The translations under genes and the position numbers were made by a program. Below, in pieces: positions 30,492 to 61,010 of a stretch of 64,000 nucleotides of DNA. The notes beneath the pieces are model-generated. The model was not told the origin of the DNA, made no database searches, and was given only the letters and a program-made list of their open reading frames with translations. How positions within the stretch are numbered: the stretch's first letter is position 1; every line of letters begins with the position of its first letter. The DNA is from Bradymonadia bacterium (GTDB taxonomy: Bacteria; Myxococcota_A; Bradymonadia; UBA7976; UBA1532), in contig JBKAGE010000053.1 of NCBI GenBank assembly GCA_046290225.1, forward strand, positions 7,834 to 71,833, read 5' to 3'.

Positions 30492-32843
30492 ATGGCTCGA
30501 TATCAATCCCCACGTATTCGGTGGCTGGTGGCCGCTCTTGCCGCAGGGTGTCTGTTTGTGGGCAGTCAGCTGACGGGCATCGATGCTGCCCATGCCCAGG
30601 TGCCCGAGCTGCTCAATCACCAGGGCCGTTTGCTCGACGCCGGGCAGGTGCCCATCACGGGCACTCGAACCCTGACCTTCGCGGTGTACGACAGCCCTGA
30701 AGGTGGAGAGCTGCTCTGGTCAGAGACTCAAGATGAGGTGCTCTTCCAGAACGGCTACTACGCGGTCACGTTGGGCCAGCAGGGGGGCTTCCCCACAGAG
30801 ATCGCTGCGGACTCTGGTCTTTATCTGGAGATCACCGTCGAGGATGAGCACCTCAGCCCGCGCCTGCCCATGGGCTCGGCGCCTTTTGCCCTGGCGGCTG
30901 GCGTCGCGGACGACGTCACTGGAGACATCAACCCCCGCTCGGTGAGCATCGGCGGTCAGCTGGTGATCGATGCCGAGGGTCGCTGGGTGGGTGAGGTGAT
31001 GGGCCTCGAGGGCCCGCAGGGTGAGCCTGGGGCGCAGGGCCCCGCTGGCCCTCAGGGCGAGCAAGGCCCTGCAGGGCCACAAGGTGAGCCCGGTGAGCCC
31101 GGGCCGCAGGGCGAGCAAGGCCCAGTGGGTCCTGCCGGGCCTCAAGGCGAGCGGGGCTTGCAAGGTCTACCGGGCGCTCTAGGGGCTCAGGGTGATCAGG
31201 GCCCCATTGGCCCGGTGGGGCCTTCAGGGCCTCAGGGTGAGCAGGGCCCTCAGGGTTTGCGGGGTGAGCAGGGGCCTGTTGGCCCTCAAGGTCTTCAGGG
31301 TGAGCAGGGGGCCGACGCGGATCCAGAGGTGATCGCCCAGCTCCTTCTCGAAGATGCTGACCTTCGAACTGCAGTGACGGAACTGCTCTTCGAGCAATAC
31401 AGCGCCGAGCTGAGAGGTCCTCAAGGCGAGCAAGGCATCCAGGGCGCTGACGCTGATCCCAACGTGGTGGCCGGCTTGCTCAGTGAAAACAACGCGTTCT
31501 TGGAGCTCGTCGCCTTGGCCCTCGCCATTGACTATGCCGACGAGCTGCGTGGCGCACCGGGCGTCCCTGGTCCCCAGGGCCCTCAGGGTGAGCAGGGTCT
31601 TCAAGGCCCACAGGGCTCAGAAGGCCCTCAAGGCCCCGCGGGATCAGTGGCAGATCCTCAGGACGTGGCCGACATCCTGGCGGAGGACGAGCAGTTCAAC
31701 GCGGGGGTGGCCGAGCGCTTCTTCAATGACTTTGGTGACGCCATCCGTGGTGACGAGGGTCCCGAAGGCCCTCAGGGCCCTGTGGGTCCAGAGGGTCCCC
31801 AAGGTGAGCAGGGTGTCCAAGGCCTTCAAGGTGAGCAGGGCGCTCCCGGACCTCAAGGGCCTCAGGGCGAAGTTGGCCCTGCTGGCTCCGTGGGGCCCGA
31901 GGGGCCTCTGGGTCCTCAGGGAGAGCCAGGGCCCGAGGGTCCTGTGGGGCCCGCTGGCCCTCAGGGTGATCAGGGGCCCCAAGGTGATCAAGGCATTCAA
32001 GGTCCCGCAGGCGCACAGGGGGATCAGGGCGAGCAAGGGCCTCAGGGTGAGCAAGGCATTCAGGGCGAGCAAGGCGTTCAGGGCGAGCAAGGCCCTGCCG
32101 GTCCTCAGGGCCCTGCCGGGCCTCAGGGCCCTGCCGGTGACGGGATCCCCGATGGGGTGGTCATGCCCTTCGCACTGGAGAGCTGCCCCGCAGGCTGGGC
32201 ACCTGCAGATGGCACCAACGGCACCCCGGATCTCCGTGGGCGCGTACCCATGGGCGTGGGTACTCTGCCTGGTGCCGAAGCCCCCAACACCATCGCCCTG
32301 GGACAGGCTGGTGGCTCCAGCCGCTACCGGGTCTTCGCGCAGCGCAACCTGGTGGCCCTCGGCAACAACGATCGCGCCATCCAAGGCACGGGCCTGCGCT
32401 GGTTCGGTGACGACGATCAGCAAGAGTCGGTGTCTTTCGCCAACAACGACGCCAACGCCGACAGCGGCGATCAAGAGGGCGGGATGGCCCGTCACCTGCC
32501 GCCGTATGTGGGTCTGCTGTACTGCGTGAAGGGCGTGCAGGCGCCGTCGACGCCCACGTTCGCCGCCGAGGTGACCGACATCTTCGCGGCCCGGTGCAAT
32601 GTCTGCCACAACGCGAACTTCTCGTCTGGCGGCCTGGACTTGTCTTCTTACAATGCTGCGCTGAGTGGTGGGATCTCCGGGCCTCTCGTGGACGCTGGAG
32701 GTGATCCAGCGGCGTCGGAGCTGATCCGTCGAGTGCGTGCGCTCGATGGCGCGCCCTTGATGCCTCAGGGCGGCCCGGCACTGGGTGAGGCCGACATTCT
32801 CACGCTGGAGGCGTGGATCAGCGGAGGTGTACCGGAGAACTGA
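30492..32843 (+). CDS. Secreted collagen-like triple-helix repeat protein with a phage tail-collar domain and a C-terminal PSCyt1 (planctomycete cytochrome c, CxxCH) domain.
   Basis: Signal [35 protein letters not shown]. More than 300 aa of interrupted G-X-Y repeats ([25 protein letters not shown]...). Tail-collar-like motif [34 protein letters not shown]-terminal [60 protein letters not shown]. Confidence 0.8.
31000..32150 (+). repeat. Degenerate 9-nt/18-nt tandem repeats encoding G-X-Y collagen triplets.
   Basis: ggccctcagggtgagcaaggc-type units repeated many times. Confidence 0.7.
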
Positions 32844-32951: not shown

Positions 32952-34541
32952 CTACGCCCACAAAACCTCGACCCGTCGTGCCGAGGTCGTCTCGTGTACT
33001 TCGAATCGAGTCTGCGGAACATCCGCCAGCGCTGCCTGCCGTTGGTCGAAAATCACCATCCAGCCAGAGTCGAGTGACAGTGCCTGCAGATAGCGTTCGA
33101 TCTGCGTCAGCGCATCTGGCAGCGGGTTGCCCCGGGAGGCCCAACGTTTGATCTCGATGACCTCTTGTTGCACATGGTGGGCGTCACCATGGATGGGCCA
33201 GCGGACATAGACATCCACCGAGCCTCGACCGAGGCCGTATTCTCGATCGATGAACCCCCCGCCGTTCACCACTCTCTGCAAAAATGCCATCAAGATGATG
33301 TGAGGTGTCGCTTCGGGGTAGGTCACCCCGCGCTGAGTCAGGCCACGGCCGTGTTGGCGCCAAAAATCAGCGAAAGCGTCCATCGCTCCGCGCATGTCGA
33401 AGCGCCCGTCGGGTAATATGAAGCGTGCCGGCTCCACCGCGATTTGGGGCTCGTAGTTCGCGGTGAGCCCACGGATGATCACTTCACGATAGATCGGGTT
33501 CGCCGGGCGTGCTGGATAGTCTCGGGCGATGAGACCCAGATCCCGCACATAGCTGAAGTCATCGTTGTAGGTGAAGTCCTGAGTCGCTGTTTGGGCTGAT
33601 GGTTCCGTGATCAGGGGCGCCAGTACACGCTGGACCGCTGGCTCGTGCAGCCTAGCCACCAGAGAGTCCAGATGTGTGGCCCGGGCTAGGATCAAACGCT
33701 CTTTGGCCCGCTCAATGTCTGCTGCCGTGATCGTCCCTGTGACGCCCATCGCGTAGAGCACCTCGGCGGCGAGGCTGTTCACCAACCACGGTTGGCCTTG
33801 AGTCAGCTCGAAGGCTCGGGCTCTGGCTGCCTCGTCGAATCTCTGACCTGTCTCTTCTGTGTGTTGAGTGTAAAGGGTGTCGACTTCATCAGCGGTGAAG
33901 TTGTCCAACACCAAGGAGGTCACTTTGATGTTGAAAGGACTCGAGGTGCCAAACCGAGAGGTGTCTGCACCACTCGCGGCTCTATAGTCGCGTACGTCTC
34001 GCAGACCACACAAAGCCACCGACCATGGAGCGTGATCTGGTCGGTTGTCGTAGCCCATGCGCAACTGCCGCAGAACCGAGACGAGGCTTTGACCTCTCAG
34101 GGCGTCGATCTCATCGAAGAACAAGGCGAGCGGCTTTGGGCATGCGGCGGCCCAGCGCCTGAGGAAAGTGAGCAACAAGCTCCCGTCAGGCAGGTTGCCT
34201 GCCTCTGTGTCTGGAGGGTGAAGCCTCAAAGGCAGCTGGCTCTCCGCTTCCAGCCTGATGCTTTGGATGATGATCTTCTGTGCTTCGGCGTAGTCGTCTG
34301 CAGCGGCCTCTCCTGCTTCGCACGAGAAGTAGAGCGCGGCGAACCGCCCCTCCGAGTTGAGCTGTCGGGCCACATGTTTGAGGGTGGTGGTCTTCCCAGT
34401 CTGTCGTGGCGCATGCACGACGAAGTATTTACCGCGCCGGACCAGATCAGGCACCTCTGCCAGTCGGCTCAGAGCTGGCACCATGTAGTGGTCGCGCCCA
34501 TTACATGGGCCGGTGGTGTTGAACTCTTTGGGCAGATCCAT
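32952..34541 (-). CDS. AAA-ATPase_like domain protein with a C-terminal PD-(D/E)XK nuclease-like domain (DUF1703-type).
   Basis: Likely start MDLPKEFNT at 34541; the ORF extends to 34730. P-loop YFVVHAPRQTGKTTTL. C-terminus GSVDVYVRW..EVIEIKRW is a PD-(D/E)XK-like D..E.K. Local GC is noticeably lower than the surroundings. Confidence 0.65.
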   Translation of the reverse strand: MDLPKEFNTTGPCNGRDHYMVPALSRLAEVPDLVRRGKYFVVHAPRQTGKTTTLKHVARQLNSEGRFAALYFSCEAGEAAADDYAEAQKIIIQSIRLEAESQLPLRLHPPDTEAGNLPDGSLLLTFLRRWAAACPKPLALFFDEIDALRGQSLVSVLRQLRMGYDNRPDHAPWSVALCGLRDVRDYRAASGADTSRFGTSSPFNIKVTSLVLDNFTADEVDTLYTQHTEETGQRFDEAARARAFELTQGQPWLVNSLAAEVLYAMGVTGTITAADIERAKERLILARATHLDSLVARLHEPAVQRVLAPLITEPSAQTATQDFTYNDDFSYVRDLGLIARDYPARPANPIYREVIIRGLTANYEPQIAVEPARFILPDGRFDMRGAMDAFADFWRQHGRGLTQRGVTYPEATPHIILMAFLQRVVNGGGFIDREYGLGRGSVDVYVRWPIHGDAHHVQQEVIEIKRWASRGNPLPDALTQIERYLQALSLDSGWMVIFDQRQAALADVPQTRFEVHETTSARRVEVLWA

Positions 34542-34650
34542 GAAGTGGAGTCTACTGGTGCGCGCCTCGGAGCGTCCAGGCGACTGCGTGTCATTGAACT
34601 TTTTCGCCCCTCGTGCGTGAGTACCCGAGCCACCCACTCGGAGTACCTGA

Positions 34651-35541
34651 ATGAAGCACCTGCTCGCGATCTGCGCCCTCGCCCTCGCTGCCACCACAGG
34701 CACCGCCATCGCGTGTTTGCACCCCGGCAACCCCTCGGTCCAGCTCGTCGAGACCGGTCAGAAAGCCCTCATCATGTATGCCGATGGTCGCGAGGAGCTG
34801 ATCATCAAGGTCGACTACGCCGGCTATGCTGCGCCTGGGCCCCTTGCTTGGGTCGTGCCTACACCTTCGGTGCCTGATCATTACGCCGAGACCGATCCGG
34901 CGCTCTTCGACGAGCTGCATCGACTCACCCAGCCTCCACAGCCGCGGAGCAAGGGGCTGCGCTCGAAGTCGAAGTCGGCAGCGCCTGCGATGTTGATCAT
35001 GCATCAGCCCGTGAATGTAGGGACGTACACCATTCAACCCATCGGCGCCTCGGGGCCGGAGGCTGGCCCTGCCTTGAACACGTGGCTCAAGTCCAACGGC
35101 TTTGGCGAGGTACCCGAGGCCAACATGAAGTGGTACCTCGATAAAGGGTGGACCTTCCTGGCCATCAAGACCGAAGCCAACGAGCCCAAGGGTGGCCTCA
35201 AGCCTCTGCGCATCTCGTTTGCTGCCGATCGGCTGTGGTACCCGCTGAAGTTCAGCAGCCACCAGGGGGACTTCCCCGTCACCGTGTATACCCTCACCAA
35301 GGAGCGGTTGAAGCCTGAGGCAATTGCGGGATTGCCCGGTGGGTTCAAGGCTGTGGGGCAGGCCCGAATCGTCGGTGGGGTAGGGACCTCTGCCCTGAAA
35401 TTGCTCATGGCCGAGATCGCCAAAGAGGGGCGCCTCATGATTGGGCGAGGCCACCTGCGTCGGCTGCAGTCCAGGCGGGTCAACACTCAGGCAGACCCCG
35501 TCGCCAAGTGGCCTGAGGACTTCTCCATCGCAGCGCCCTGA
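34651..35541 (+). CDS. Secreted hypothetical protein.
   Basis: Signal MKHLLAICALALAATTGTAIA. 296 aa, no motif recognised. Confidence 0.5.
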   Translation: MKHLLAICALALAATTGTAIACLHPGNPSVQLVETGQKALIMYADGREELIIKVDYAGYAAPGPLAWVVPTPSVPDHYAETDPALFDELHRLTQPPQPRSKGLRSKSKSAAPAMLIMHQPVNVGTYTIQPIGASGPEAGPALNTWLKSNGFGEVPEANMKWYLDKGWTFLAIKTEANEPKGGLKPLRISFAADRLWYPLKFSSHQGDFPVTVYTLTKERLKPEAIAGLPGGFKAVGQARIVGGVGTSALKLLMAEIAKEGRLMIGRGHLRRLQSRRVNTQADPVAKWPEDFSIAAP

Positions 35542-36198
35542 TCAGAAGCCGTCGCCGAAGCCGGGTGAACCACCGAAGCCTGGCATGCCTCCCATGCCAT
35601 CGGGGCCAGGTACGCTGAAGCAGTCCTGAGGATCGTCGATGCAGGCAGCGTTGGGCAAACACGCTGTACGGCTCTCGTCTCCCTCGTCGGTGGCGCATTC
35701 GAGCAGGCTCACCGAGATCCCACCCACAGAGGGCGGGTTGCACTGACTGTCCATCGTGCAGGGGATCGTGCAGTCGCGGGCGCCCCTCCATTGGGCACAG
35801 ATCGCCGTGGGGTCGAGGACCTGACACTCGGCATCGGTTTGACAGGGCAGGCGGGGCTCTTCTTCGGGCGCAGGTGGGTTCTCCTCGCTGGGCGCCTCTG
35901 CAGGGGGCTGGCAGATGTCGACCGAGACGGTGCCTACCCCTTCACAGCCGGCGCTGCCGCTGCACTCATTGCCTTCTACACTGCAGTCGAGATGACAGGT
36001 CGTGCGATCACCAAGGCGTACACAGACCGCCCCGTCTTCACAGTCCGCCGTTGTGGTGCAGGCCTGCGCTGTGTCGCCTGAGTATTCGCCGCTGGCTGCG
36101 CCGCCACCTGTATCGCCAGAGTCACCATCACCGTCATCGCACCCTATGAGGGTGATCATCAGGGCAGACATCGCCAGAGCTGTCAGTCGAGCATGCAT
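35542..36198 (-). CDS. Cys-rich lipoprotein with a Gly/Phe-rich C-terminus.
   Basis: Lipobox MSALMITLIGC. About 24 Cys in an acidic 200 aa. C-terminus GMGGMPGFGGSPGFGDGF. Confidence 0.55.
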   Translation of the reverse strand: MHARLTALAMSALMITLIGCDDGDGDSGDTGGGAASGEYSGDTAQACTTTADCEDGAVCVRLGDRTTCHLDCSVEGNECSGSAGCEGVGTVSVDICQPPAEAPSEENPPAPEEEPRLPCQTDAECQVLDPTAICAQWRGARDCTIPCTMDSQCNPPSVGGISVSLLECATDEGDESRTACLPNAACIDDPQDCFSVPGPDGMGGMPGFGGSPGFGDGF

Positions 36199-36306
36199 CG
36201 TACTTCCTCCGTGTGTGGTAAAGCGTCGAAGACACTGTACGGATCACGTGCGAGGCATCACAGCGATCGTCGCTGAACTCGTCTGAACAGAAGTTTGAGT
36301 GTGTTT

Positions 36307-39030
36307 TCAGGTGTTTGCTGCCCGACGCCATCCCCATGCGCCTGCCAGCGTGTAGCCCTCGGCTGTGGTCAGGAGCCATTGGGGACCCGTGTCGCCCAGG
36401 GCGTGTCGCAGCTTCTTGATGTTGGCGTGTAGCCGGTTGTCGTGACGCAGAGGGTGATAGTCGGCCTCGCCCCACACTTGGGTGCAGAGGGCTTCTTTGT
36501 CGAGGGCGCCGCCTGCCCGGGCAAGAGAGACCATGATGCGCCAGAGCAGAGGGCTCAGCGCGATCTCGGCCCCGTGGGGGCGCCAGATACATTGACGGGC
36601 TTCGTCCACACCCCATCCTGGGGTCCAGGGAGTGGCGGCGTGGGATTGCCCAGGGCGGGTGGATGATCGCGAAAGGCGTTGGCAGATCTGTAGATCGAGC
36701 TGATCCAGAGGCGGATCGCCACCGAGCAGCCATTGTGCGCGTCGGGCTGCCGTCGGTGAGACATGGGGACTGGCGGCGAGCTCTTCCAGTGGACCGAGAG
36801 GTCGTGGGGTGGTGTGCGCCATCCACGCCATGAGGCGAGCGCGGTGTGCATATCGAAGGCTGCCCATCTCTTGTGCCAGCACATCGAGGGCTTCGCTCTG
36901 TGTCTGAACCTGGGCAATGTCACCGGTGAGCAAAGACAGATCACCGAGCGTGCAGCGCAGCTCGGCCAGCGCCCGCCGATCACCCTGAGCCTCGGCGAGT
37001 TCGATGCCCTCTGTTTGCGCGCGGATGCCCTCAGAGAGTTGATCGTTGAGAGCTGCGCGCTCTCCTCGGAGCACATACGCCAGCAACTGCCCGTGCGGAT
37101 GCGAGCCCGGGTCGGTGGTGGCCCACAGATCACCATGGCGCAGCGCCCGCCGCGCTCTCAAAATACGCAAGGGGCCACGAAACGCCGGGGACACGTCGAG
37201 CAAGGGCGCATTGGGCGGTCGCCCCTCGACGCGCCCCACCTCCTCTATGGCGGCGCCGACTGCATGGGCAAAGACATCTGTGCTGTTGATCAGGGTGTCT
37301 GCCTGCAGAGTGGTCAGTGTGCTCCAGAGGCCATCGAAGTCTCCTGCCAGAATCGCGTGCTCCACTGTGAGCAGCTGCACGCTTACGCTGAGCAGCCCAC
37401 CACAGTGGGTCATCAGACGGAGCGACTCCAACCGCTCACCGCACGCTGTCAGATCGCCCTGAGTCAGGCTGTGGCCGGCGTCGATGAGCAAAGCTGATGT
37501 ACGTTGAGGAGAAGGCCTCATTTGAGCGATCAGGGGTCGGGCGAGGGCCATCACCTCTCTGGCGGGCTCGAGGGCGCCCAGCGTGATCAACGCCCGGGCG
37601 AGATCGAGCAGTGGCGTGGGCACCAGCGTGTCAGGGGTGGCAGAGAAGCGCCTTTGTTGCGCCATGGCCTCACGCAGCGCGTCGTCACGTCGATCCAGGT
37701 GAGAGAGGGCAACCACCCGGATGACCGCACCGCGGTAGCCTGCCGAGGCCTGATGCGCAGGAGGCGTCAGGTGGAGGAGTGCGTCGTCGTAATGCCCCAG
37801 GTTCATCAAACACAGGGCTGTGGCCAGCGCCGTGGAGGGCCCCAACCCATCGAGGGCTTCAAGGGCCCGAGCGGGATCACCGGCGAGCATCACGCCCCGT
37901 GCCCAGACCGATCTCAGCTCTGCATCTTCAGGGGGATCTGCAGGCAAGGTGGCGAGGGCTGCCCGTGAGCCCATGGCGACGGCAGCCCGCATGCGCCACG
38001 GCCGTAACGCGGGGGATTCTACCGGGGCCAGCAACGGCCAGAGGCGTCCGCAGTGATCCAGGAGTGTCTGGCCATGAGCGGTCAATAGCCGACATGCAGC
38101 GGCTTCGTCACCGAGCTGAAGCCACAGCCGCAGCGATTCGATGAGGCACTCTGGTGCTGTGCGCTGTGCCAGAGCAGTGGCGGTCTCACGGCGTCTCGCC
38201 AGGGACTCGGGTGTGCCCTGGAGCCCCTCGCGGACTGCCGGGTGAGCGTGCAGCAGGTCACCGTCGAACAGCACGAGGCCCCGGCGTCGGAGCATGCTCA
38301 GATCTTCAGCGTTGATCAGGTCGTCTTCCGTGGGGATGCCGCGGAGGAGCGCGAGGCGATATAGGGCGTCTTGAGCGGAGGGCGAGAGGCCTTCGAGCCA
38401 GAGACGCTGCGGATCACGGGCGCCAGATAGCAGCTGAATGAAGTGCAGTGGGGAGCCCCCTCCGTGGGTGTGCGCCTGTGCCCTGAGATCATCAGAGGCG
38501 CTCCATGCGTCGGCGATGACGTCGAGTGTCTCTCTGGGCAGCGTTGAGAGCGGGATGTGAGGAATACTGGCCAGGCCTTGATGCCGCCAGCTCAGCACCA
38601 GCCAGTGGCTGTGCCGGCCATATTGGCTGACAAGGTCGACGAGCGCCCCAGCATCGGGACTGCCAGCGGCATCGATGACCACCCACCAGCGGTGGACCTC
38701 GGCGAGGGCCACGGCCTCACTGAGCGGATCTTCCACGGCCTGCTCGGGGCCGTGGTTGAGGCCCGCGGCGCGACTGAGGGCGTGGAGCAGCCACTGAGCG
38801 AGGGGGGCATGCGCTTCAGGGCTGCTCACCACGAGGGTCTGCTCGACCTTGCGCTTGAAGTGACGATGCAGAGTCATTTGGGCCAGGGTGCGTCGGCCGA
38901 TGCCTGGTGGACCCCAAATCTGCACCACCGGCCCTTGGCGAAGGGCTGCTCTCAGCGCCTCGATCTCTGCTGTACGACCCGCTGCATGAGGGGGCGGGTT
39001 GGGCAGGCGGAATTTGAGAGGCAGGGGCAT
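36307..39030 (-). CDS. STAND-type NTPase / TPR-like regulator with a C-terminal OmpR/PhoB-type winged-helix DNA-binding domain.
   Basis: N-terminal P-loop VVQIWGPPGIGRRTLAQ. About 600 aa helical/TPR-like. The C-terminus LSPLLWRIMVSLARAGGALDKEALCTQVWGEADYHPLRHDNRLHANIKKLRHALG..GYTL matches the trans_reg_C pattern. Confidence 0.7.
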   Translation of the reverse strand: MPLPLKFRLPNPPPHAAGRTAEIEALRAALRQGPVVQIWGPPGIGRRTLAQMTLHRHFKRKVEQTLVVSSPEAHAPLAQWLLHALSRAAGLNHGPEQAVEDPLSEAVALAEVHRWWVVIDAAGSPDAGALVDLVSQYGRHSHWLVLSWRHQGLASIPHIPLSTLPRETLDVIADAWSASDDLRAQAHTHGGGSPLHFIQLLSGARDPQRLWLEGLSPSAQDALYRLALLRGIPTEDDLINAEDLSMLRRRGLVLFDGDLLHAHPAVREGLQGTPESLARRRETATALAQRTAPECLIESLRLWLQLGDEAAACRLLTAHGQTLLDHCGRLWPLLAPVESPALRPWRMRAAVAMGSRAALATLPADPPEDAELRSVWARGVMLAGDPARALEALDGLGPSTALATALCLMNLGHYDDALLHLTPPAHQASAGYRGAVIRVVALSHLDRRDDALREAMAQQRRFSATPDTLVPTPLLDLARALITLGALEPAREVMALARPLIAQMRPSPQRTSALLIDAGHSLTQGDLTACGERLESLRLMTHCGGLLSVSVQLLTVEHAILAGDFDGLWSTLTTLQADTLINSTDVFAHAVGAAIEEVGRVEGRPPNAPLLDVSPAFRGPLRILRARRALRHGDLWATTDPGSHPHGQLLAYVLRGERAALNDQLSEGIRAQTEGIELAEAQGDRRALAELRCTLGDLSLLTGDIAQVQTQSEALDVLAQEMGSLRYAHRARLMAWMAHTTPRPLGPLEELAASPHVSPTAARRAQWLLGGDPPLDQLDLQICQRLSRSSTRPGQSHAATPWTPGWGVDEARQCIWRPHGAEIALSPLLWRIMVSLARAGGALDKEALCTQVWGEADYHPLRHDNRLHANIKKLRHALGDTGPQWLLTTAEGYTLAGAWGWRRAANT

Positions 39031-45340: not shown

Positions 45341-48300
45341 TCAATCGCAGGGGTTCGCCGCCCCCGGTGAGATCGCCTCGAGCAGGCGGAAGTCTGCAGA
45401 GTTCTCGTTCGTGTCCACGCCATTCGGGCAGCGTGCCAGCGCGCCCTCGCCTGTGTCGGCCTCCTCGGGTGACATGCCTTCACCAGACTCAGGCAGAGCG
45501 CCCTCGTAGGCCAGGGCGTCGAGCACGTCGCCGTCCACCACGATGCGCACCCCATCAGGGGCGCCGTTCTGAATGCTGCGGCCCAGATCGAGGGCCATGG
45601 CACCGTCGGGTAGATCAGCGATGGCCGCACCGTTGCCCACCACCAGGAACTGCCCCGGGCTCAGGCTGCCTGCGGTGTCGAGCGGAATCGAGCCGTAGGG
45701 CTCGCCGTCATTGCCGTTCACCAGCTCCAGCACATGGCCTGCCAGCGGCACCGCCTCGGCGCCAGCGTTGTAGATCTCCACGAACTCGGCCTCGTCGGCG
45801 CCAGGGTTGTCGTAGTCGATCTCGTTGATCACCAGCCCCCCACCAGCGCTCTCCACAACCTCTACGGTGGCCTGTGACGACAAAATGCCCAACGTGGCCA
45901 CCAGACGCCCGTTACCGGGCTGGGCCGGCGCCTGCAGCGTAAAGGCCCCTCGAGACGCGCCGGGCTCGATGGTCACGGTCGCCGGCACCGAGCCGATGTC
46001 CGTCTGCAGCCGGACCTCGAAGCCATCGGGTCCTGCAGGCACATCGGCCTCTACCGTCAGGGCCCCCTGACCACCAGCAGGGACCTCGAGGGTTCGGGGC
46101 AGCACCGTCAGGCGGTCTGGCCCTTCGTCTACGCCGAGCACCCGGACTGTAGCCGAGGACATGCCCTGACCGGGAATGCTCGCCGTCACCGTCACCATGC
46201 GGCTCGCGCTCAAACCCTCTGCGGTGATCGCCGCAGTCCGCTCTCCCGCAGGCACCATCACCTGACGGCCTGTGAGCAGGGCCTGGCCGTCGCTCACTTG
46301 CAGATCGACCAGCTGTCCGCCGTCGCCGGCGGGTGACGTCAGCACCACCTCGAGGGCGCGGCCCTCGGTGTCGGTCGGTATGGCGGACTCGCCCACGCGG
46401 ATGAAGGTGAGGGCCGGACGCACCGAGGTCACCGCGGGGGCGCCCTGATCGAGATCTTGTGGCCCGGTGGGTTCGAGCTTGTAGGCGTCGTTGGCGAAGC
46501 GCATCACCCCGGTGATGCCTTCGAAGCGCGCGCCGATGTTGGGCAACGGGTCGAGTAGGAACAGGTAGTCGTCCACAGGCAGCACGTTGTCCACCTGGAA
46601 CTCGTTGGTGGGATCCCGATCTCCAGGTCCAGGGGGCAGGTTGGTGGCCGTGACCACCACATCGGCCACCCTGACGCGGACCCCTTCGAGGGTCTGGGCG
46701 CGACCGCCGCCCACGGCCACCTGGGCCGGAGAGACCTCCACAGCGGCCGGCAGCTCGCCGCGGCCTTCCACCTGCACCCCGCTCACACGGGAGATCTGCT
46801 TCTGCCCGAAGAACTCGGAGTGGATGCCATCCACCACCACGGCATCGCCGGCGGAGGGGGTTGGCACCCCATCTTCAGCGTTGCCGGTGTAGACGAAGAT
46901 GCCCGAGTCGTCGGGGCCGCTGTATACGCCGGCGCTCTCGGGCACCTGCAGATAGAAGCCCTGGTCGTCGGGTACCACGCCCGTCACCACACCCGTGGCT
47001 CGCACCGGGATCTCCTGATCCACGGGCACCTCGCCCCGCTTCATCGCGTAGATCGTCACCGGGCAGCCAGCGCCGTTGGCGTTGGGTGAGTTCGGGCAGA
47101 AGTCACACGGATCGCCGATGCCGTCGTTGTCGCTGTCCGTCTGGCTGGGGTTGGCCCGAGCAGGGCAGTTGTCCTGGGCGTTGGGCACATCGTCGCCGTC
47201 GAGATCGTCTGGTGAGGGGCGCTCACAGGGGCAGTCGCGGCCCGCCCAGGGGCACGGATCACACGGATCACCCTTGCCGTCGTTGTCGAGATCGGCCTGG
47301 GTGGGGTTGAAGACGTTGGGGCAGTTGTCGGCGTCACCGACCAGATCGTCGCCATCGGGATCTTGTGCGGTGATCTGGCCACTCACTGTGTCGTTCCCCA
47401 GGGTGCAGTCGTACACCGGGGCGCACTCGAAGAGGGGAAACACGTTGTAGGCGTATGCGAACTCGCCGCCGGACCCGGGCTTGGCGCTCACCTCGCGCTC
47501 GAGGTAGTCGATGTGCTCCTGATAGGTGAAGCGCTGCCAGTCCTCGTCGCTGCTGGTGTCGGCCTGGCCTTCGGCCTGTTTCACGCAGATGCGCTTGGCG
47601 CCGCCACAGACCTGCACATCTTCACAGAAAGCGTTGAAGGCGATGTTGTCGGTGACCACGTCGGCGTCACCGTAGTAGGCCACGCCATCGATGAAGACCC
47701 CCCGCACATCGGCGGATTCGGCGGCCACCACGCTCTCGTAGGGTCGGGTGCGATCACCATTGAGCAACAGTACGTCGGCATAGAGCCCCGGCTGCAGGCG
47801 GCCGATCAGGTCGGTGAGGCCCATGCTGTCGGCGGCCATGCTGGTGACCATCTGCACCATCTGCTGAGCATTGATGGCGCCTCCGAAGTGGGTCTGGTTC
47901 ACCTCGTCGGCGCACTTGAGCTCCGCGAGCTGGTTCATGGTGCCCGAGGGGGTCCAGTCAGGGCCCATCGACACCGTGAGGCCCATGTTCAGGGCGGTGA
48001 CCACGTCAGTGGTGGTGCCGTAGAGGCCCACGTTCGACTGCGGGGACCACACCAGCTTGGTCTGATTCACCAGCATCTGGGTCATCTGGCCACCGTCGCA
48101 GCTCACACAGTGGATGATGGCGGTCTTCTCACCGAGCTGGCCGCTCTGTACGAACTCGTCGAACTCGTTGTAGGCGGTGCGATCGTAGCCTTCGCTCACG
48201 TGCGCCATGTAGGCGCGGCCGGGGATCTGATCCCCACGGCCATAGTCGGGGGCGTCGCGGCAGCTGGATCGCAGAGGGAACACACACTCGGTGAAGTCGT

Positions 48301-49075
48301 CGTTGCTGTAGCCGAGATCGTTGGCGTCGGGCCCGCGGTCGAGGTTGCGCACGTGAGCCCAGGAGGCGTTCGAGCCCTCTGACTTGTGCACCGCCGTGGT
48401 GCCCGCCATGAGCAGGCGCAGCTCGTTGTACCGGGCTGAGATCTTGTCGCCATTGTCAGGCCGGGCGTCGTAGAGGGCCTCGGCGACGTCGCGGTTCCAC
48501 TGCCCTCGGTTGCTGTAGAGCCGCCCCATGGCGTCGAAGGGGGGCAGCGTGTTGTAGCTCATGTGGTTGTGGGGATCGATCATACCCGGGGTGATCAGAT
48601 CTGCGCAGATCACCGTGGCCTGGGCCGCCATCGGATCACCAGAGCAGTCGGCCCCGACGCAGGTGATCTGGCGACTGCCCCGATCGAAGAGGACCTGCCC
48701 GTTGCACAGCACCTCGTCGGGCGTGATCACCGTGCCCTGTACGAGGGTGGCGCCGTTGGTCCCTTGTCGTGGGGTGCACGCTGCGAACTGAACCCCCTCG
48801 CAGTGAGGGATCGGATCGGGCTCGGGGCACATGTCACCGCCACCCTGACCACCCACACCGCCCTGGCCACCCTCACCGGCGTTGCCGCCCTGGCCGCCGA
48901 AGTTGCCGATGTTGCCCGTGCCACCCTGGCCGCCGGTGATGCCACCCTGGCCACCTCGACCACCCTGGCCGGCGCTGCCGCCCTGACCGCCCTGTCTATT
49001 TTCGACCGGATCGTCTTTGGCGCAGCCGTACGTGATCAGCGCGAGGAGAATCGTAGAGAAGAGAGCCTGACGCAT
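45341..49075 (-). CDS. Large secreted lipoprotein: Gly-rich GGQGG repeats, amidohydrolase-family domain, thrombospondin type-3 Ca-binding repeats, Ig-like region and C-terminal lamin-tail domain (LTD).
   Basis: Likely start MRQALFSTILLALITYGC at 49075 with GAGGTG upstream; the ORF extends to 49225. PHNHMSY metal-hydrolase motif. TSP3-like DNCPNVFNPTQADLDNDGKGDPCDPC and DNCPARANPSQTDSDNDGIGDPCDFC. LTD motif LVINEIDYDNPGADEAEFVEIYN. Confidence 0.7.
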   Translation of the reverse strand: MRQALFSTILLALITYGCAKDDPVENRQGGQGGSAGQGGRGGQGGITGGQGGTGNIGNFGGQGGNAGEGGQGGVGGQGGGDMCPEPDPIPHCEGVQFAACTPRQGTNGATLVQGTVITPDEVLCNGQVLFDRGSRQITCVGADCSGDPMAAQATVICADLITPGMIDPHNHMSYNTLPPFDAMGRLYSNRGQWNRDVAEALYDARPDNGDKISARYNELRLLMAGTTAVHKSEGSNASWAHVRNLDRGPDANDLGYSNDDFTECVFPLRSSCRDAPDYGRGDQIPGRAYMAHVSEGYDRTAYNEFDEFVQSGQLGEKTAIIHCVSCDGGQMTQMLVNQTKLVWSPQSNVGLYGTTTDVVTALNMGLTVSMGPDWTPSGTMNQLAELKCADEVNQTHFGGAINAQQMVQMVTSMAADSMGLTDLIGRLQPGLYADVLLLNGDRTRPYESVVAAESADVRGVFIDGVAYYGDADVVTDNIAFNAFCEDVQVCGGAKRICVKQAEGQADTSSDEDWQRFTYQEHIDYLEREVSAKPGSGGEFAYAYNVFPLFECAPVYDCTLGNDTVSGQITAQDPDGDDLVGDADNCPNVFNPTQADLDNDGKGDPCDPCPWAGRDCPCERPSPDDLDGDDVPNAQDNCPARANPSQTDSDNDGIGDPCDFCPNSPNANGAGCPVTIYAMKRGEVPVDQEIPVRATGVVTGVVPDDQGFYLQVPESAGVYSGPDDSGIFVYTGNAEDGVPTPSAGDAVVVDGIHSEFFGQKQISRVSGVQVEGRGELPAAVEVSPAQVAVGGGRAQTLEGVRVRVADVVVTATNLPPGPGDRDPTNEFQVDNVLPVDDYLFLLDPLPNIGARFEGITGVMRFANDAYKLEPTGPQDLDQGAPAVTSVRPALTFIRVGESAIPTDTEGRALEVVLTSPAGDGGQLVDLQVSDGQALLTGRQVMVPAGERTAAITAEGLSASRMVTVTASIPGQGMSSATVRVLGVDEGPDRLTVLPRTLEVPAGGQGALTVEADVPAGPDGFEVRLQTDIGSVPATVTIEPGASRGAFTLQAPAQPGNGRLVATLGILSSQATVEVVESAGGGLVINEIDYDNPGADEAEFVEIYNAGAEAVPLAGHVLELVNGNDGEPYGSIPLDTAGSLSPGQFLVVGNGAAIADLPDGAMALDLGRSIQNGAPDGVRIVVDGDVLDALAYEGALPESGEGMSPEEADTGEGALARCPNGVDTNENSADFRLLEAISPGAANPCD

Positions 49076-49223
49076 GGTCCACCTCGAGTCGGGAACGCGT
49101 GACGGTAGCACAGAGCGTAAGTTGAAGTGCGACAGGTCGGTGAAATGCGCTGTCGATTTTGGCGCGGCCTTTGCTGGGACTCCCACGCAATACGGAACAC
49201 CCCCGATTTTGCCCGGAGCCACC

Positions 49224-50402
49224 ATGTTCAGCCGTCAGATTTTCAGGAACGCCCCCCAGATTTTCACCTTGCCCGCCATGCTCGCGGCGCTGCCTGCGTT
49301 GATGCCCAGTCAGGCCGAGGCGTGCTCGCCCCCACTCCCTGGGCTCACCGGCAGCATCCCCGAGAGCGGTGACGTGCTGTACGCAAACTCTGCCATCGTG
49401 CTGCAGGGTCACGACATCACGCTCGACGATCTCAATGTTCTGGTCGACGGCGAGCCCGCAGAGATCGTCGAGACCGAAGAAGACTACCCCGGGCTTTCAT
49501 TCCGCATCTCGCCCGAGCCGATGCCGAACAGCACAGTGACCGTCTTCGGCAACGCCTGTCACCCTGAGGCGCGAGAGTGGTCTGAAGAGAGCTGCGGCGA
49601 TGTAGAGCTGACGTTTCTCACGCTCGAAGCCGACGAGGTGGTCCCGAGCCCCGTGGTCGACCTGAGCTTCAGCATCTACGACCACCCCAACTTCGAGGTG
49701 CCCCCTGGGGCATGTTTCGCCGGGGGCGACTACACCACGTACGTCAACGCCACCTTCGACCTTCCCCCTGGTGAAGAAGGCGCCCCCATCTTCGTGAATC
49801 TCTACCGCAAGATCGACGGCGAGGATTGGCGCCCATGGCGTCGCCGACGCATCTCGGGCAACACATACGAGGCCGAGATCTATCTCTGGGAGGGTGGCCG
49901 TGATCCGGCGAGCATCCCCGGCGGAGAGTGCTGGCGAATGCAACTCGTCGACGCTGCGGGCAATGTCGGCGAAGCCGCCGAGACCTGCGCGCCGTGTTTT
50001 GTGCGCGTCGAGCCTGGCGAAGACGTCGAGTACGAGATCGGTGATTACCCTGAGCAGCCCGAGTGGTCGGCAGACGATCTCTTCCCAGGTGGCGTATGTG
50101 GTGTCGACGACCAAATCATCGATGACGACATCGATGATGATGCAGACGAAGACATCGATGAAGACACTGATGAAGACACCGATGAGAACATTGACGAAGA
50201 CAATCCCGTGGACGAGGGCATGGACGATGTTGACGAGTCAGGGGGCGCACGTGGTGGCGAGGGGCAGCAAAACAGCGCCGGTGGTGACGAGATCGGCGAG
50301 CGCACGCGGAGCAGTGGTGGGTGCAGCTCTGGCGGCGGTGCTCCAGCAAGCGGCATTGTGTGTTTGATCTTCGCCCTCATCGGGCTTCGGCGGATGCGCT
50401 GA
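49224..50402 (+). CDS. Secreted protein with an acidic DxD-rich linker and a MYXO-CTERM sorting tag.
   Basis: Signal MFSRQIFRNAPQIFTLPAMLAALPALMPSQAEA. DDDIDDDADEDIDEDTDEDTDENIDED. The C-terminus SGGCSSGGGAPASGIVCLIFALIGLRRMR (GC, then TM, then RR) matches MYXO-CTERM. Confidence 0.7.
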   Translation: MFSRQIFRNAPQIFTLPAMLAALPALMPSQAEACSPPLPGLTGSIPESGDVLYANSAIVLQGHDITLDDLNVLVDGEPAEIVETEEDYPGLSFRISPEPMPNSTVTVFGNACHPEAREWSEESCGDVELTFLTLEADEVVPSPVVDLSFSIYDHPNFEVPPGACFAGGDYTTYVNATFDLPPGEEGAPIFVNLYRKIDGEDWRPWRRRRISGNTYEAEIYLWEGGRDPASIPGGECWRMQLVDAAGNVGEAAETCAPCFVRVEPGEDVEYEIGDYPEQPEWSADDLFPGGVCGVDDQIIDDDIDDDADEDIDEDTDEDTDENIDEDNPVDEGMDDVDESGGARGGEGQQNSAGGDEIGERTRSSGGCSSGGGAPASGIVCLIFALIGLRRMR

Positions 50403-60941: not shown

Positions 60942-61010
60942 TTATCCACGCCACCCGACCCGTGCCCGACATGCACGCACTGGCCAGGGCTCGGCGAGTC
61001 GGAGCAAACC

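What the first reader, a model, noticed from the sequence alone, without database searches (positions are those of the whole stretch)
30492..32843. Secreted chimeric protein: collagen triple-helix repeats + phage tail-collar domain + PSCyt1 cytochrome-c-like domain
The domain combination is unusual. Bacterial collagen-like proteins are typically fused to adhesins or phage fibre domains. Here a tail-collar-like segment (..[13 protein letters not shown]..) is followed by a CxxCH motif in the planctomycete PSCyt1 pattern ([19 protein letters not shown] ... WISGG). This suggests a phage-fibre-derived, possibly haem-binding, extracellular filament.
Basis: partly seen in the sequence, partly recalled or inferred. 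Interest (0 to 1): 0.6.

Follow-up and report, generated by a model that had tools for sequence, protein, structure and literature searches.

The report
Cytochrome-capped collagen fibre of a predatory bacterium
A predatory (Bradymonadia) bacterium encodes a long collagen-stalked surface fibre of the kind predators use to grab prey, and this copy alone carries a small haem-binding cytochrome c domain after its phage-like tip, a combination found nowhere else in the databases searched.

Summary
ORF 30492-32843 (+) encodes a 783-aa protein with a signal peptide, 94 Gly-X-Y triplets (Pfam Collagen 6.8e-40) and a PSCyt1 cytochrome c domain (37-42 bits, cutoff 22). That domain keeps CxxCH and the conserved Met-Pro, and a profile of it matches both haem domains of the solved FoxE structure at 1.4e-18. 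Pfam Collar narrowly fails (22.2 vs 24 bits, partial), but the segment is homologous to trimeric phage tail-fibre tips (PHROG 3.6e-7; PDB 9qgo 2.7e-6 alone, 8.7e-15 as a profile).

It defines a Myxococcota family: same N-domain, collagen stalk, interchangeable tips (collar-like, P-domain, DUF4215/COLFI-like, C1q, canonical Collar). It hits NCBIfam Bdello_MAT_N weakly but consistently (15 of 19 members, best 1.8e-11, below cutoff).

The host is a Bradymonadia MAG. A second fibre gene, probably from the same genome (P0009), has the same tip (68% identity) but ends without the cytochrome. Of 171 collar-like tips examined, 167 end within 10 residues of the stop; only this one has a different domain appended. 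No prophage was seen among the window ORFs scanned.

Verdict: a new variant of a known kind (MAT-like chimeric fibre). Haem binding is likely but untested, and its purpose is unknown.

The parts
30492..30596 (+). Signal peptide, residues 1-35 ([35 protein letters not shown] | QVPE)
   Evidence: By inspection: basic n-region, hydrophobic core, AHA|Q site. All family members have the same layout, with A-x-A|Q/E directly before the N-domain. No signal-peptide predictor was available.
30597..31001 (+). Conserved beta-rich N-domain, residues 36-170, ending in the V.DAEGRWVG motif. It is the family-defining, presumed cell-proximal anchor and trimerisation end.
31002..31316 (+). Collagen run 1, residues 171-275, 35 Gly-X-Y triplets
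31317..31415 (+). Stalk interruption 1, residues 276-308, 33 aa ([33 protein letters not shown])
   Evidence: Consensus ADP..VA..L.eD.dF...V..tLfd.FadeLR is shared with P0009 (8 interruptions, the last a 73-aa double module) and P0161. No Pfam family.
31416..31451 (+). Collagen run 2, residues 309-320, 4 triplets
31452..31550 (+). Stalk interruption 2, residues 321-353, 33 aa
31551..31649 (+). Collagen run 3, residues 354-386, 11 triplets
31650..31748 (+). Stalk interruption 3, residues 387-419, 33 aa
31749..32144 (+). Collagen run 4, residues 420-551, 44 triplets
32145..32537 (+). Collar-like phage-tail-fibre-type tip domain, residues 552-682 ([19 protein letters not shown] ... [14 protein letters not shown]). 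Conserved Cys pair C565/C678.
   Evidence: Pfam Collar 22.2-22.4 bits, below the cutoff of 24, partial. PHROG 1800 'tail collar fiber protein' 3.6e-7 over the full length. PDB 9qgo tail fiber 2.7e-6 with the window sequence alone. Profile A7 against PDB: 9qgo 8.7e-15, 6ov6 4.3e-13, 9nxk 5.4e-9, 9cuy short tail fiber 2.7e-4. 68% identical to the C-terminus of P0009.
32538..32561 (+). Short linker, residues 683-690 (QAPSTPTF)
   Evidence: P0009 terminates here (…LLYCVKADQN*).
32562..32840 (+). Mono-haem class I cytochrome c domain of the PSCyt1/FoxE family, residues 691-783. CxxCH is C702-N-V-C705-H706 (32595-32609). The putative distal ligand M757-P758 starts at 32760.
   Evidence: Pfam PSCyt1 37-41.6 bits, cutoff 22. 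All near-invariant positions of 359 homologous domains are retained. Profile A6 against PDB: FoxE 5mab 1.4e-18 on both haem domains, hydrazine synthase alpha 1e-7, many class I cytochromes c. AF2 pLDDT is 91-97 over this domain.
32841..32843 (+). Stop codon TGA

Best explanation
The gene encodes a Sec-exported, most likely homotrimeric surface fibre of a predatory Bradymonadia bacterium (Myxococcota).

Architecture, which is shown: signal peptide; a conserved beta-rich N-domain; a collagen triple-helix stalk of 94 Gly-X-Y triplets broken by three acidic 33-residue modules; a phage-tail-fibre-type collar-like tip; and, unique to this copy, a C-terminal single-haem class I cytochrome c domain of the PSCyt1/FoxE family.

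Mechanism, which is inferred: the N-domain holds the fibre on the producer's surface and helps set the trimer register. The collagen stalk places the tip roughly 80-95 nm away (about 81 nm of triple helix at 0.286 nm per residue, plus the three interruption modules). The tip contacts a ligand on prey cells or particles, as Bdellovibrio MAT fibres do.

Because the chain crosses the periplasm unfolded, the cell's cytochrome c maturation system can attach haem covalently to C702/C705, with H706 and probably M757 as axial ligands. Trimerisation would then bring three haem domains together at the distal cap.

The stalk has no redox cofactors, so the haem cannot be wired to the cell. It most likely acts locally, as an extra binding or redox-reactive or redox-sensing cap on the receptor-binding tip, not as a respiratory conduit.

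The gene arose by grafting one cytochrome domain unit onto the C-terminus of an existing fibre like P0009, which is probably a paralogue in the same genome.
For: Domain calls.

Family with a constant N-domain and interchangeable tips: 6 genome loci, all in MAGs labelled Myxococcales, Myxococcota or Deltaproteobacteria or left unclassified, plus 17 further proteins including Collar and C1q tips.

Link to MAT: NCBIfam Bdello_MAT_N hits 15 of 19 N-domains, always right after the signal peptide. The MAT paper defines MATs by a conserved ~130-aa beta-rich domain after the signal peptide, variable tips and surface display, and lists members in Bradymonadaceae and Myxococcales (PMC10769870). The AF2 N-domain model is beta-rich and confident.

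Tip: homologous to solved trimeric phage fibre tips and common on viral contigs.

Cytochrome: CxxCH, S, M-P and W are all retained. FoxE matches at 1.4e-18. The FoxE haems are His/Met ligated by the corresponding methionines (PMC10654088). AF2 pLDDT exceeds 90.

Organism: the window's CysN is NCBI MFN3200550.1, Bradymonadia bacterium. P0009 is MFN3201918.1 with the same label, and its variant P0175 comes from the same sample as the window protein's contig. Bradymonadia are contact-dependent predators with a T2SS (PMC7460792).

Appended domain: 167 of 171 collar-like domains end within 10 residues of the stop. The only other long extension is a tandem collar.
Against: - Nothing here was tested experimentally: not haem attachment, trimerisation, surface location or any role in predation.
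- The MAT link rests on sub-threshold HMM hits (29 bits against a cutoff of 60). The fold comparison that would settle it could not be run because afdb50 was unavailable.
- Known MAT stalks are beta-prisms or beta-helices, not collagen.
- The collar half of the AF2 model is uninformative. My query cut off its first 23 residues and the alignment was shallow.
- The cytochrome fusion is seen in a single MAG or sample, so it could be a recent, neutral or even deleterious accident.
- The exact 783-aa sequence is absent from the 15-billion-protein collection, although the neighbouring CysN is there under an NCBI accession. The gene may therefore be called differently or flagged in GenBank.
- No cytochrome c maturation genes could be checked, because only 64 kb of the genome is visible.
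Confidence: 0.6

Rival explanations
1. Neutral or accidental fusion. A cytochrome domain unit was recently recombined onto the end of a normal fibre gene in one lineage. It has no selected function and may be poorly matured or may even impair the tip.
For: Only one occurrence was found anywhere. P0009, probably a paralogue, has the same tip and works without it. The collar-like domain is otherwise the extreme C-terminus in 167 of 171 cases. The exact product is not in the large protein collection.
Against: All near-invariant residues of the cytochrome family are intact, with no frameshift or stop. The junction sits exactly at a domain boundary with a short Pro/Thr linker. GC3 of the cytochrome segment (0.74) is close to that of the other globular domains (0.80). 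The tip has diverged 32% from P0009, so the gene is not a very recent duplicate.
Confidence: 0.17
2. Periplasmic or cell-envelope protein. The collagen-like protein stays in the periplasm or inside the outer membrane, and the cytochrome domain takes part in ordinary periplasmic electron transfer, like FoxE.
For: FoxE and most class I cytochromes c are periplasmic. Only a Sec signal is visible, with no recognisable outer-membrane export signal. Close relatives of the cytochrome domain include lipoproteins and membrane-anchored cytochrome-b fusions (P0001, P0011, P0016).
Against: An 80-95 nm rigid stalk is several times wider than a periplasm. The tip is of the phage receptor-binding type. MAT relatives are surface displayed (PMC10769870). 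Other family members carry adhesin-type tips such as C1q, P-domain and COLFI-like.
Confidence: 0.12
3. Extracellular electron-transfer filament (a nanowire), or an Fe(II)-oxidising appendage coupled to the cell's energy metabolism.
For: It is a fibre with a c-type cytochrome. The closest solved relative, FoxE, oxidises Fe(II). Relatives occur as tandem arrays fused to membrane cytochrome b.
Against: There is one haem per chain, located only at the distal end. About 81 nm of collagen without cofactors lies between the haem and the cell, far beyond electron-tunnelling range by established knowledge. No foxY or foxZ, multihaem or porin-cytochrome genes were found nearby.
Confidence: 0.05
4. Prophage or phage-tail-like particle component: the gene is a phage tail fibre sitting in a degraded prophage.
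For: The tip is homologous to phage tail-fibre tips and is abundant on viral contigs. Collagen repeats do occur in some phage fibres (general knowledge).
Against: The flanks are housekeeping genes: rho, a release factor, RNase E/G and a cysH/D/N-sirohaem-sulfite reductase operon ending 187 bp upstream. There are no tRNAs. No phage-family genes were found among the 21 large ORFs scanned. The protein has a Sec signal peptide, which virion proteins generally lack. One N-domain peptide pattern found no relative on viral contigs.
Confidence: 0.03

Closest known systems
Bdellovibrio bacteriovorus MAT (mosaic adhesive trimer) chimeric fibre proteins (Caulton et al. 2024, PMC10769870; NCBIfam NF053851 Bdello_MAT_N)
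   Same: A signal peptide is followed at once by a conserved ~130-aa beta-rich N-domain, then a long fibre with interchangeable, partly phage-like C-terminal tips. Several fibre genes differ in their tips, and the host is a predatory bacterium. The HMM matches are weak but consistent (15 of 19 family members, best 1.8e-11). The authors already list MATs in Bradymonadaceae and Myxococcales, and one with a 'collagen-like' tip.
   Different: Scores are below the curated cutoff (29 against 60 bits). The stalk is a collagen triple helix with 33-aa interruptions rather than beta-prism or beta-helix. There is no S74 chaperone-protease. A cytochrome c cap is not among the MAT tips described in the text and tables read. 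Surface display and trimerisation are untested here.
Phage tail-fibre tip domains of the T4 gp12 / 'tail collar' type (Pfam PF07484 Collar; PHROG 1800; PDB 9qgo, 6ov6, 9nxk, 9cuy)
   Same: It shares the GW..[11 protein letters not shown] start motif and the PPY..L.Y..K end motif, and the profile aligns end to end with solved trimeric tips. In relatives the domain is normally the extreme C-terminus of the fibre.
   Different: It falls below the Pfam gathering score and matches only the first third of the model. It lacks the MP.H.H histidine motif seen in the phage-like relatives P0003 and P0006. It has a Cys pair instead. Here it is followed by another domain.
PSCyt1 (PF07635) / FoxE-type class I cytochrome c domains
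   Same: It passes the Pfam threshold. CxxCH, Ser, Met-Pro and Trp are all conserved. The profile matches both haem domains of FoxE at 1.4e-18. The model is helical and confident.
   Different: There is one copy per chain, whereas 150 of the 151 best relatives have 2-8 tandem copies (the ranking favours multi-copy proteins). It is not joined to PSCyt2/PSD1 as in Planctomycetes, and it is not in a foxEYZ operon. It sits at the C-terminus of a fibre in a Myxococcota organism.
Bacterial collagen-like surface proteins (Streptococcus Scl1/Scl2, Legionella Lcl, Bacillus BclA)
   Same: Gly-X-Y triple-helix stalk with globular end domains, and an extracytoplasmic location. The NCBIfam Scl/Lcl models hit the repeats.
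   Different: Scores are far below the cutoffs (170 against 325; 140 against 500) and come only from the repeats. There is no LPXTG anchor. The N- and C-terminal domains are different, and none of these proteins carries a cytochrome.
Cytochrome nanowires (Geobacter OmcS/OmcE/OmcZ) and surface multihaem cytochromes (MtrC/OmcA)
   Same: An extracellular filament or surface protein containing c-type haem that must be matured in the periplasm before export (general knowledge).
   Different: Those are polymers or proteins with closely stacked multiple haems that form a continuous electron path. This protein has a single haem per chain at the far end of an insulating collagen stalk.

Membership tests
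Pfam PF01391 Collagen triple helix repeat | Score above the gathering threshold; uninterrupted Gly-X-Y runs | tested here: met
   135.1 bits against 27.2, in 6 stretches. 94 triplets in runs of 35, 4, 11 and 44; X is mostly Pro, Y mostly Gln.
Pfam PF07635 PSCyt1 / class I cytochrome c | Score above the gathering threshold | tested here: met
   37.0 bits on the whole protein and 41.6 bits on the isolated domain, against a cutoff of 22.
Pfam PF07635 PSCyt1 / class I cytochrome c | CxxCH haem-attachment motif and a distal Met ligand | tested here: met
   C702-N-V-C705-H706 and M757-P758 are present. These positions are 100% and 91-93% conserved in 359 homologous domains. They align with the FoxE CxxCH and 'rMP' motifs, whose Met residues are the axial ligands (PMC10654088).
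Pfam PF07635 PSCyt1 / class I cytochrome c | Covalently bound haem c in the mature protein | not testable with these tools
   Needs expression in a Ccm- or Ccs-proficient host, followed by haem staining, spectroscopy or mass spectrometry.
Pfam PF07484 Phage Tail Collar domain | Score above the gathering threshold over the domain | tested here: not met
   Not reported on the whole protein at E<=1. The isolated segment scores 22.2-22.4 bits against a cutoff of 24 and covers only profile positions 1-21 of 57.
Phage tail-fibre tip domains (gp12-like; PHROG 1800; PDB 9qgo, 6ov6, 9nxk) | Significant sequence homology across the domain to phage fibre tips | tested here: met
   PHROG 1800 at 3.6e-7 over residues 6-135 of the segment. 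9qgo at 2.7e-6 with the window sequence alone. Profile A7 at 8.7e-15, 4.3e-13 and 5.4e-9, aligned end to end.
Phage tail-fibre tip domains (gp12-like) | H-x-H histidine motif seen in the phage-like relatives (a metal site on the three-fold axis in T4 gp12, from my own knowledge) | tested here: not met
   In alignment A7, P0003 and P0006 have MPAHTH and MPSHTH. The window protein, P0009 and L005 have no H-x-H at that place.
Phage tail-fibre tip domains (gp12-like) | Fold of the domain | tested here: inconclusive
   The AF2 model has pLDDT below 50 for this half. My query lacked the first 23 residues and the alignment had only 5 homologues.
MAT (mosaic adhesive trimer) superfamily | Conserved beta-rich ~130-aa domain immediately after the signal peptide, homologous to the Bdellovibrio MAT N-domain | tested here: inconclusive
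   Position, size and beta-rich fold fit. NF053851 hits at 7.8e-7 and 29 bits, and 15 of 19 family members hit (best 1.8e-11), always profile positions ~3-78. All are below the curated cutoff of 60 bits. The fold comparison with MAT AlphaFold models was not possible.
MAT (mosaic adhesive trimer) superfamily | Mosaic design: one constant end and diversified C-terminal tips across family members | tested here: met
   The same N-domain occurs with collar-like, P-domain plus collar-like, DUF4215 plus COLFI-like, C1q, canonical Collar and unassigned tips.
MAT (mosaic adhesive trimer) superfamily | Trimeric fibre displayed on the predator surface and binding prey | not testable with these tools
   A trimer is expected from the collagen repeats and from the trimeric solved tip homologues, each of which has 3 chains. 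Location and ligand need experiments.
MAT (mosaic adhesive trimer) superfamily | Intertwined beta-prism or beta-helix stalk; S74 protease in one subfamily | tested here: not met
   The stalk is collagen with helical-looking 33-aa modules. Pfam reported only Collagen, PSCyt1 and Cytochrome_CBB3 on the protein, so no S74-type domain.
Scl1/Scl2/Lcl collagen-like adhesins (NCBIfam NF038329, NF038330, NF046116) | Score above the curated cutoff; LPXTG or a specific non-collagen domain | tested here: not met
   170, 125 and 140 bits against cutoffs of 325, 400 and 500, with matches confined to the repeats. There is no LPXTG motif in the sequence.
FoxE Fe(II) oxidase | Two haem domains in one chain; foxEYZ operon context | tested here: not met
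   There is a single domain. The neighbours are cysN upstream and an AAA ATPase downstream, with no PQQ protein or transporter.

The most novel reading that the evidence does not exclude
The three cytochrome domains brought together by trimerisation form a functional tri-haem cap on the end of a predator's prey-contact fibre. They might be cross-ligated in trans by Met757, as the two FoxE domains cross-ligate each other. The cap would carry out redox chemistry at the target surface, for example electron exchange with prey outer-surface redox proteins or minerals, redox-gated adhesion, or peroxidase-type damage. That would be a new functional class of fibre tip: a redox-active tip rather than a purely lectin-like one.
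Probability: 0.15. Interest if true: 0.8.

Novelty: new variant of a known kind. Interest (0 to 1): 0.55.

Why it matters
Prey-recognition fibres of predatory bacteria were described only in 2024, and their known tips are lectin-like, TNF-like or enzyme-like binding modules. This locus extends them in two ways.

- It defines a Myxococcota/Bradymonadia branch in which the stalk is a bacterial collagen triple helix with regular 33-residue interruptions. This links the MAT-type N-terminal domain to collagen-stalked fibres.
- It shows that a covalent-haem cytochrome domain can be grafted onto a phage-type receptor-binding tip.

If the haem is really attached and exposed about 80-95 nm from the cell, it would be the first redox cofactor reported on the tip of an adhesive fibre. 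It would raise testable questions about redox sensing or redox attack during contact-dependent predation. It would also offer a natural scaffold that displays three haems on a rigid collagen rod, which could be useful for protein engineering.

If the fusion is an evolutionary accident, it still illustrates tip-swapping at domain boundaries in these fibres.

Tried and rejected
- **Word-index homologue search with the N-domain alone** found nothing. It worked only after P0009 was found by the exhaustive search and a profile was built.
- **AF2 of the C-terminal module.** I used window:32214-32840, believing it started before the collar-like domain. It starts at T575 and cuts off the domain's first 23 residues (found). 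The collar half of the model (pLDDT below 50) is therefore uninformative. The cytochrome half is fine.
- **Foldseek of that model against the PDB** gave no significant match.
- **The afdb50 fold library was unavailable**, so the N-domain could not be compared with Bdellovibrio MAT AlphaFold models.
- **Look-ups of Rho, CysN and P0009 in the contig index** failed. The organism was identified through cluster membership instead.
The 8-sequence alignment found no viral relative, using a single peptide pattern.
- **Promoter and terminator scans** and the **Rfam and tRNA scans** were uninformative.
- **Three apparent 'collagen plus cytochrome' proteins** were flagged among the cytochrome relatives. 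The two inspected (P0020, P0072) were false positives from poly-Gly linkers or incidental Gly spacing, and P0040 is filled end to end by four tandem cytochrome domains.
- **Lower GC3 of the ORF (0.69)** was considered as a sign of foreign origin and rejected. It is confined to the collagen repeats (0.57-0.59), while the globular domains have 0.74-0.80.
Full report
**1. The observation**

ORF 30492..32843 on the + strand is real: 783 aa, ATG start, TGA stop. An independent Logan assembly of run SRR22269038 (L001, 4534 bp) is base-for-base identical to the window and encodes the same product.

- Pfam on the whole protein gives Collagen at 6.8e-40 (six stretches) and PSCyt1 at 37.0 bits against a cutoff of 22, over residues 702-758. 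Collar is not reported at E<=1.
- Scanned as separate segments, PSCyt1 rises to 41.6 bits. Collar reaches 22.2 bits, just under its cutoff of 24, and matches only profile positions 1-21 of 57.
- The same segment matches PHROG 1800 'tail collar fiber protein' over its full length at 3.6e-7.

So two of the three domain calls are confirmed outright. The third is a near miss by Pfam's own standard.

**2. Anatomy**

| Residues | Feature |
|---|---|
| 1-35 | Signal peptide, AHA\|Q site (by inspection) |
| 36-170 | N-domain |
| 171-275, 309-320, 354-386, 420-551 | Four Gly-X-Y runs: 94 triplets, X mostly Pro, Y mostly Gln |
| 276-308, 321-353, 387-419 | Three acidic interruptions of exactly 33 residues, consensus ADP..VA..L.eD.dF...V..tLfd.FadeLR |
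| 552-682 | Collar-like domain ([19 protein letters not shown] ... [14 protein letters not shown]) |
| 683-690 | Linker |
| 691-783 | Cytochrome domain: C702-N-V-C705-H706 and M757-P758 |

The only cysteines in the mature protein are the C565/C678 pair, which brackets the collar-like domain and is conserved in the closest relatives, plus the CxxCH pair. At 0.286 nm per residue (established value for the collagen triple helix), 282 residues give about 81 nm. With the interruptions, the stalk should be roughly 80-95 nm long.

**3. The cytochrome domain is a bona fide haem c module**

- The exhaustive HMMER search found 8651 relatives. In 359 aligned domains from the best 150 proteins, C, C and H of CxxCH are 100% conserved, a Ser 98%, Met-Pro 91-93% and a Trp 99%. 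The window protein keeps all of them.
- A 23-sequence profile (A6) matches both haem domains of the solved FoxE structure (5mab) at 1.4e-18. It also matches the C-terminal haem domain of hydrazine synthase alpha at 1e-7 and dozens of class I cytochromes c such as c6, c551 and CcoP.
[quoted passage not shown] Its haems are His/Met ligated. By residue spacing, the ligating methionines are the 'MP' methionines of this family, each ligating the haem of the other domain (PMC10654088; alignment).
- AF2 models the domain as a helical bundle with pLDDT 91-97.

Covalent haem attachment itself cannot be shown in silico.

**4. The collar-like domain is a phage tail-fibre tip, but a divergent one**

- The window segment alone hits the solved 'Tail fiber protein' 9qgo at 2.7e-6 and 6ov6 at 0.009.
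- A 7-sequence profile (A7) aligns end to end with 9qgo (8.7e-15), 6ov6 (4.3e-13), 9nxk (5.4e-9) and a short tail fibre, 9cuy (2.7e-4). The first three are entries with three chains.
- Six of the seven profile members individually give weak Collar hits.
- At least 86 relatives lie on IMG/VR viral contigs.
- Unlike the more phage-like relatives P0003 and P0006, the window protein, P0009 and L005 lack the MP.H.H histidine motif.

My AF2 query for this half was faulty. It started at T575 and cut off 23 residues, and it had only five homologues, so the low-confidence model says nothing either way.

**5.

The exhaustive search turned up P0009 (1173 aa). It has the same N-domain (54-56% identity), collagen runs with the same 33-aa interruptions, and a collar-like C-terminus 68% identical to the window's. 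It stops at ...LLYCVKADQN with no cytochrome.

A genome scan with the N-domain found six loci. Four are in MAGs labelled Myxococcales, Myxococcota or Deltaproteobacteria, and two are unclassified. Each has a signal peptide, the N-domain ending in V.DAEGRWVG and a collagen stalk. Their C-terminal ends differ:

- L003: repeats plus an unassigned tip
- L004: an unassigned tip
- L005: proprotein-convertase P-domain plus the same collar-like tip
- L006 and L007: DUF4215 Cys-rich repeats plus a COLFI-like segment

A profile search added 17 proteins, including one with a canonical Pfam Collar tip (P0162) and one with C1q (P0166). Three short metagenomic ORFs join the N-domain directly to a collar-like tip. 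This is a mosaic fibre family with one constant end and swappable tips.

**6. Relation to the Bdellovibrio MAT fibres**

NCBIfam NF053851 (Bdello_MAT_N, 'mosaic adhesive trimer family chimeric fiber protein') hits the window N-domain at 7.8e-7 and 29 bits. It hits 15 of the 19 family members, best 1.8e-11. The matches are always to profile positions ~3-78, always directly after the signal peptide, and always below the curated cutoff of 60 bits.

Caulton et al. [quoted passage not shown] They show surface display, report that the N-domain has no PDB homologue, and list MATs in Bradymonadaceae and Myxococcales plus one with a 'collagen-like' tip. No cytochrome appears in the text and tables read.

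**7. Organism and context**

The window's CysN is NCBI MFN3200550.1 from 'MAG: Bradymonadia bacterium'. P0009 is MFN3201918.1 (ACE366_26165) with the same label, and its near-identical variant P0175 lies on a contig from the same run as the window protein. The organism therefore probably carries at least two such fibres, one capped and one not. That P0009 comes from the same genome is an inference from the shared label, the close accession numbers and the shared sample.

Bradymonadia are facultative, contact-dependent predators with type IV pili and a type II secretion system (PMC7460792).

The gene sits in ordinary chromosome. RNase E/G, a peptide chain release factor, rho, and a sulfite reductase-sirohaem synthase-cysH-cysD-cysN operon ending 187 bp upstream lie on one side. 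An AAA ATPase lies on the other. There are no tRNAs, no Rfam hits and no phage genes among the 21 large ORFs scanned. There is no paralogue within the window.

**8. How unusual is the fusion?**

- The word-index search (5.8 billion clusters) found no protein matching both halves.
- The exhaustive search of 1.84 billion representatives found none either. Collagen proteins may, however, be hidden inside 50% clusters.
- Among 171 collar-like domains in 160 metagenomic and viral loci plus the earlier ones, 167 end within 10 residues of the stop codon. Two have a 30-residue tail and one has a second collar copy. Only the window protein has a different domain appended.
- None of the 150 best cytochrome relatives has an N-domain, a collar-like domain or real collagen.
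- The junction lies exactly where P0009 ends and where cytochrome domain units start in tandem arrays. This points to grafting of a domain unit, not read-through into a neighbouring gene.

**9. Mechanism**

Shown: the architecture, the family, and the integrity of the haem-binding residues.

Inferred:
- Sec export.
- Haem attachment in the periplasm by the cell's maturation system.
- Trimerisation through the collagen and the tip.
- Anchoring by the N-domain.
- Presentation of the tip about 80-95 nm from the cell to contact prey or particles.

The stalk carries no cofactors, so a single distal haem cannot be wired to the cell. That argues against a nanowire or respiratory role and for a local binding, sensing or redox-reactive function.

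One speculative point is worth testing. This cytochrome family is almost always tandem (150 of 151 best hits have two or more copies, though the ranking favours multi-copy proteins), and FoxE's two domains cross-ligate each other's haems. A homotrimer would bring three single copies together, perhaps cross-ligated in trans.

**10. Verdict**

The finding is real and the domain combination is unique in the data searched. The best description is a new variant of a known kind: a MAT-like chimeric surface fibre of a predatory Myxococcota bacterium with a collagen stalk, a phage-type tip and an unprecedented cytochrome c cap.

It occurs in a single uncultured genome, and the function of the haem is unknown. 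The main rival is a neutral accidental fusion. Interest is 0.55. The most novel reading, a redox-active tri-haem tip acting on the target surface, has a probability of about 0.15 and would deserve about 0.8 if true.

Noticed in passing
window 60834-63689 (+): A 951-aa ORF with Major Vault Protein domains (MVP_shoulder 1e-10, Vault_3 4.5e-7, Vault_4 1.3e-5). It is a vault-protein-like gene in a bacterial (Bradymonadia) genome.
   Followed up: no
window 31317-31415, 31452-31550, 31650-31748; also P0009 and P0161: The collagen stalk is interrupted by acidic modules of exactly 33 residues, equal to 11 triplets, with net charge -5 to -8 and consensus ADP..VA..L.eD.dF...V..tLfd.FadeLR. P0009 has seven such modules plus one 73-residue double module, and the unrelated-sample protein P0161 has one. 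They have no Pfam family. They may be register-preserving hinges or trimerisation nodes.
   Followed up: partly
L006 7932-9794 and L007 7923-9839: Fibre relatives whose tips combine DUF4215 Cys-rich repeats with a segment resembling the fibrillar collagen C-terminal (COLFI) domain (9.4e-5, 22.3 bits, below the cutoff of 26.2). This is an animal-collagen-like C-propeptide motif next to bacterial collagen repeats.
   Followed up: no
L003 7911-10832: A fibre relative with about eight repeats of a ~50-residue module (G.T.LNG..DP....G..GDFY.NT......GPK...GW) interleaved with short collagen segments, and an unassigned C-terminal tip. Pfam reports only Collagen.
   Followed up: no
window 32193-32195 (C565) and 32523-32525 (C678): A Cys pair brackets the collar-like domain (CPAGW ... 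LLYCVK). It is conserved in P0009, L005, P0004 and P0005 but absent from the phage-like relatives P0003 and P0006, which instead have His-rich motifs. This suggests a disulfide has replaced a metal site.
   Followed up: no
P0007-P0156 (relatives of window 32562-32840): The PSCyt1/FoxE-type domain occurs in tandem arrays of 2-8 copies in 150 of the 151 best relatives. Some are fused to an N-terminal multi-pass membrane domain that looks like cytochrome b by eye (P0011, P0016) or are separated by poly-Gly linkers (P0008). Single-copy use, as in the window protein, is rare in this set, although the ranking is biased towards multi-copy proteins.
   Followed up: partly
window 30492-32843: The exact 783-aa product is absent from the 15-billion-protein collection, although CysN from the same contig is present under an NCBI accession. 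The gene may be uncalled, given a different start or flagged as a pseudogene in the GenBank record. That would hide this fusion from protein-database searches.
   Followed up: no
window 32952-39030 (- strand ORFs 32952-34730, 35542-36198, 36307-39030): The genes just downstream have lower GC3 (0.69-0.71) than the core genes (0.8-0.9). They are an AAA-ATPase-like protein of 592 aa, an ORF with no family match, and a 907-aa protein with a C-terminal winged-helix Trans_reg_C domain. This may be a variable region.
   Followed up: no
window 45341-49225 (-): A 1294-aa protein combining amidohydrolase domains with a Lamin Tail Domain.
   Followed up: no
L088 9498-10004: The second fibre gene (P0175, a variant of P0009) is preceded by a 168-aa gene of unknown function that overlaps its start by 4 bp. 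The window gene has no such partner. It follows cysN after a 187-bp gap.
   Followed up: no
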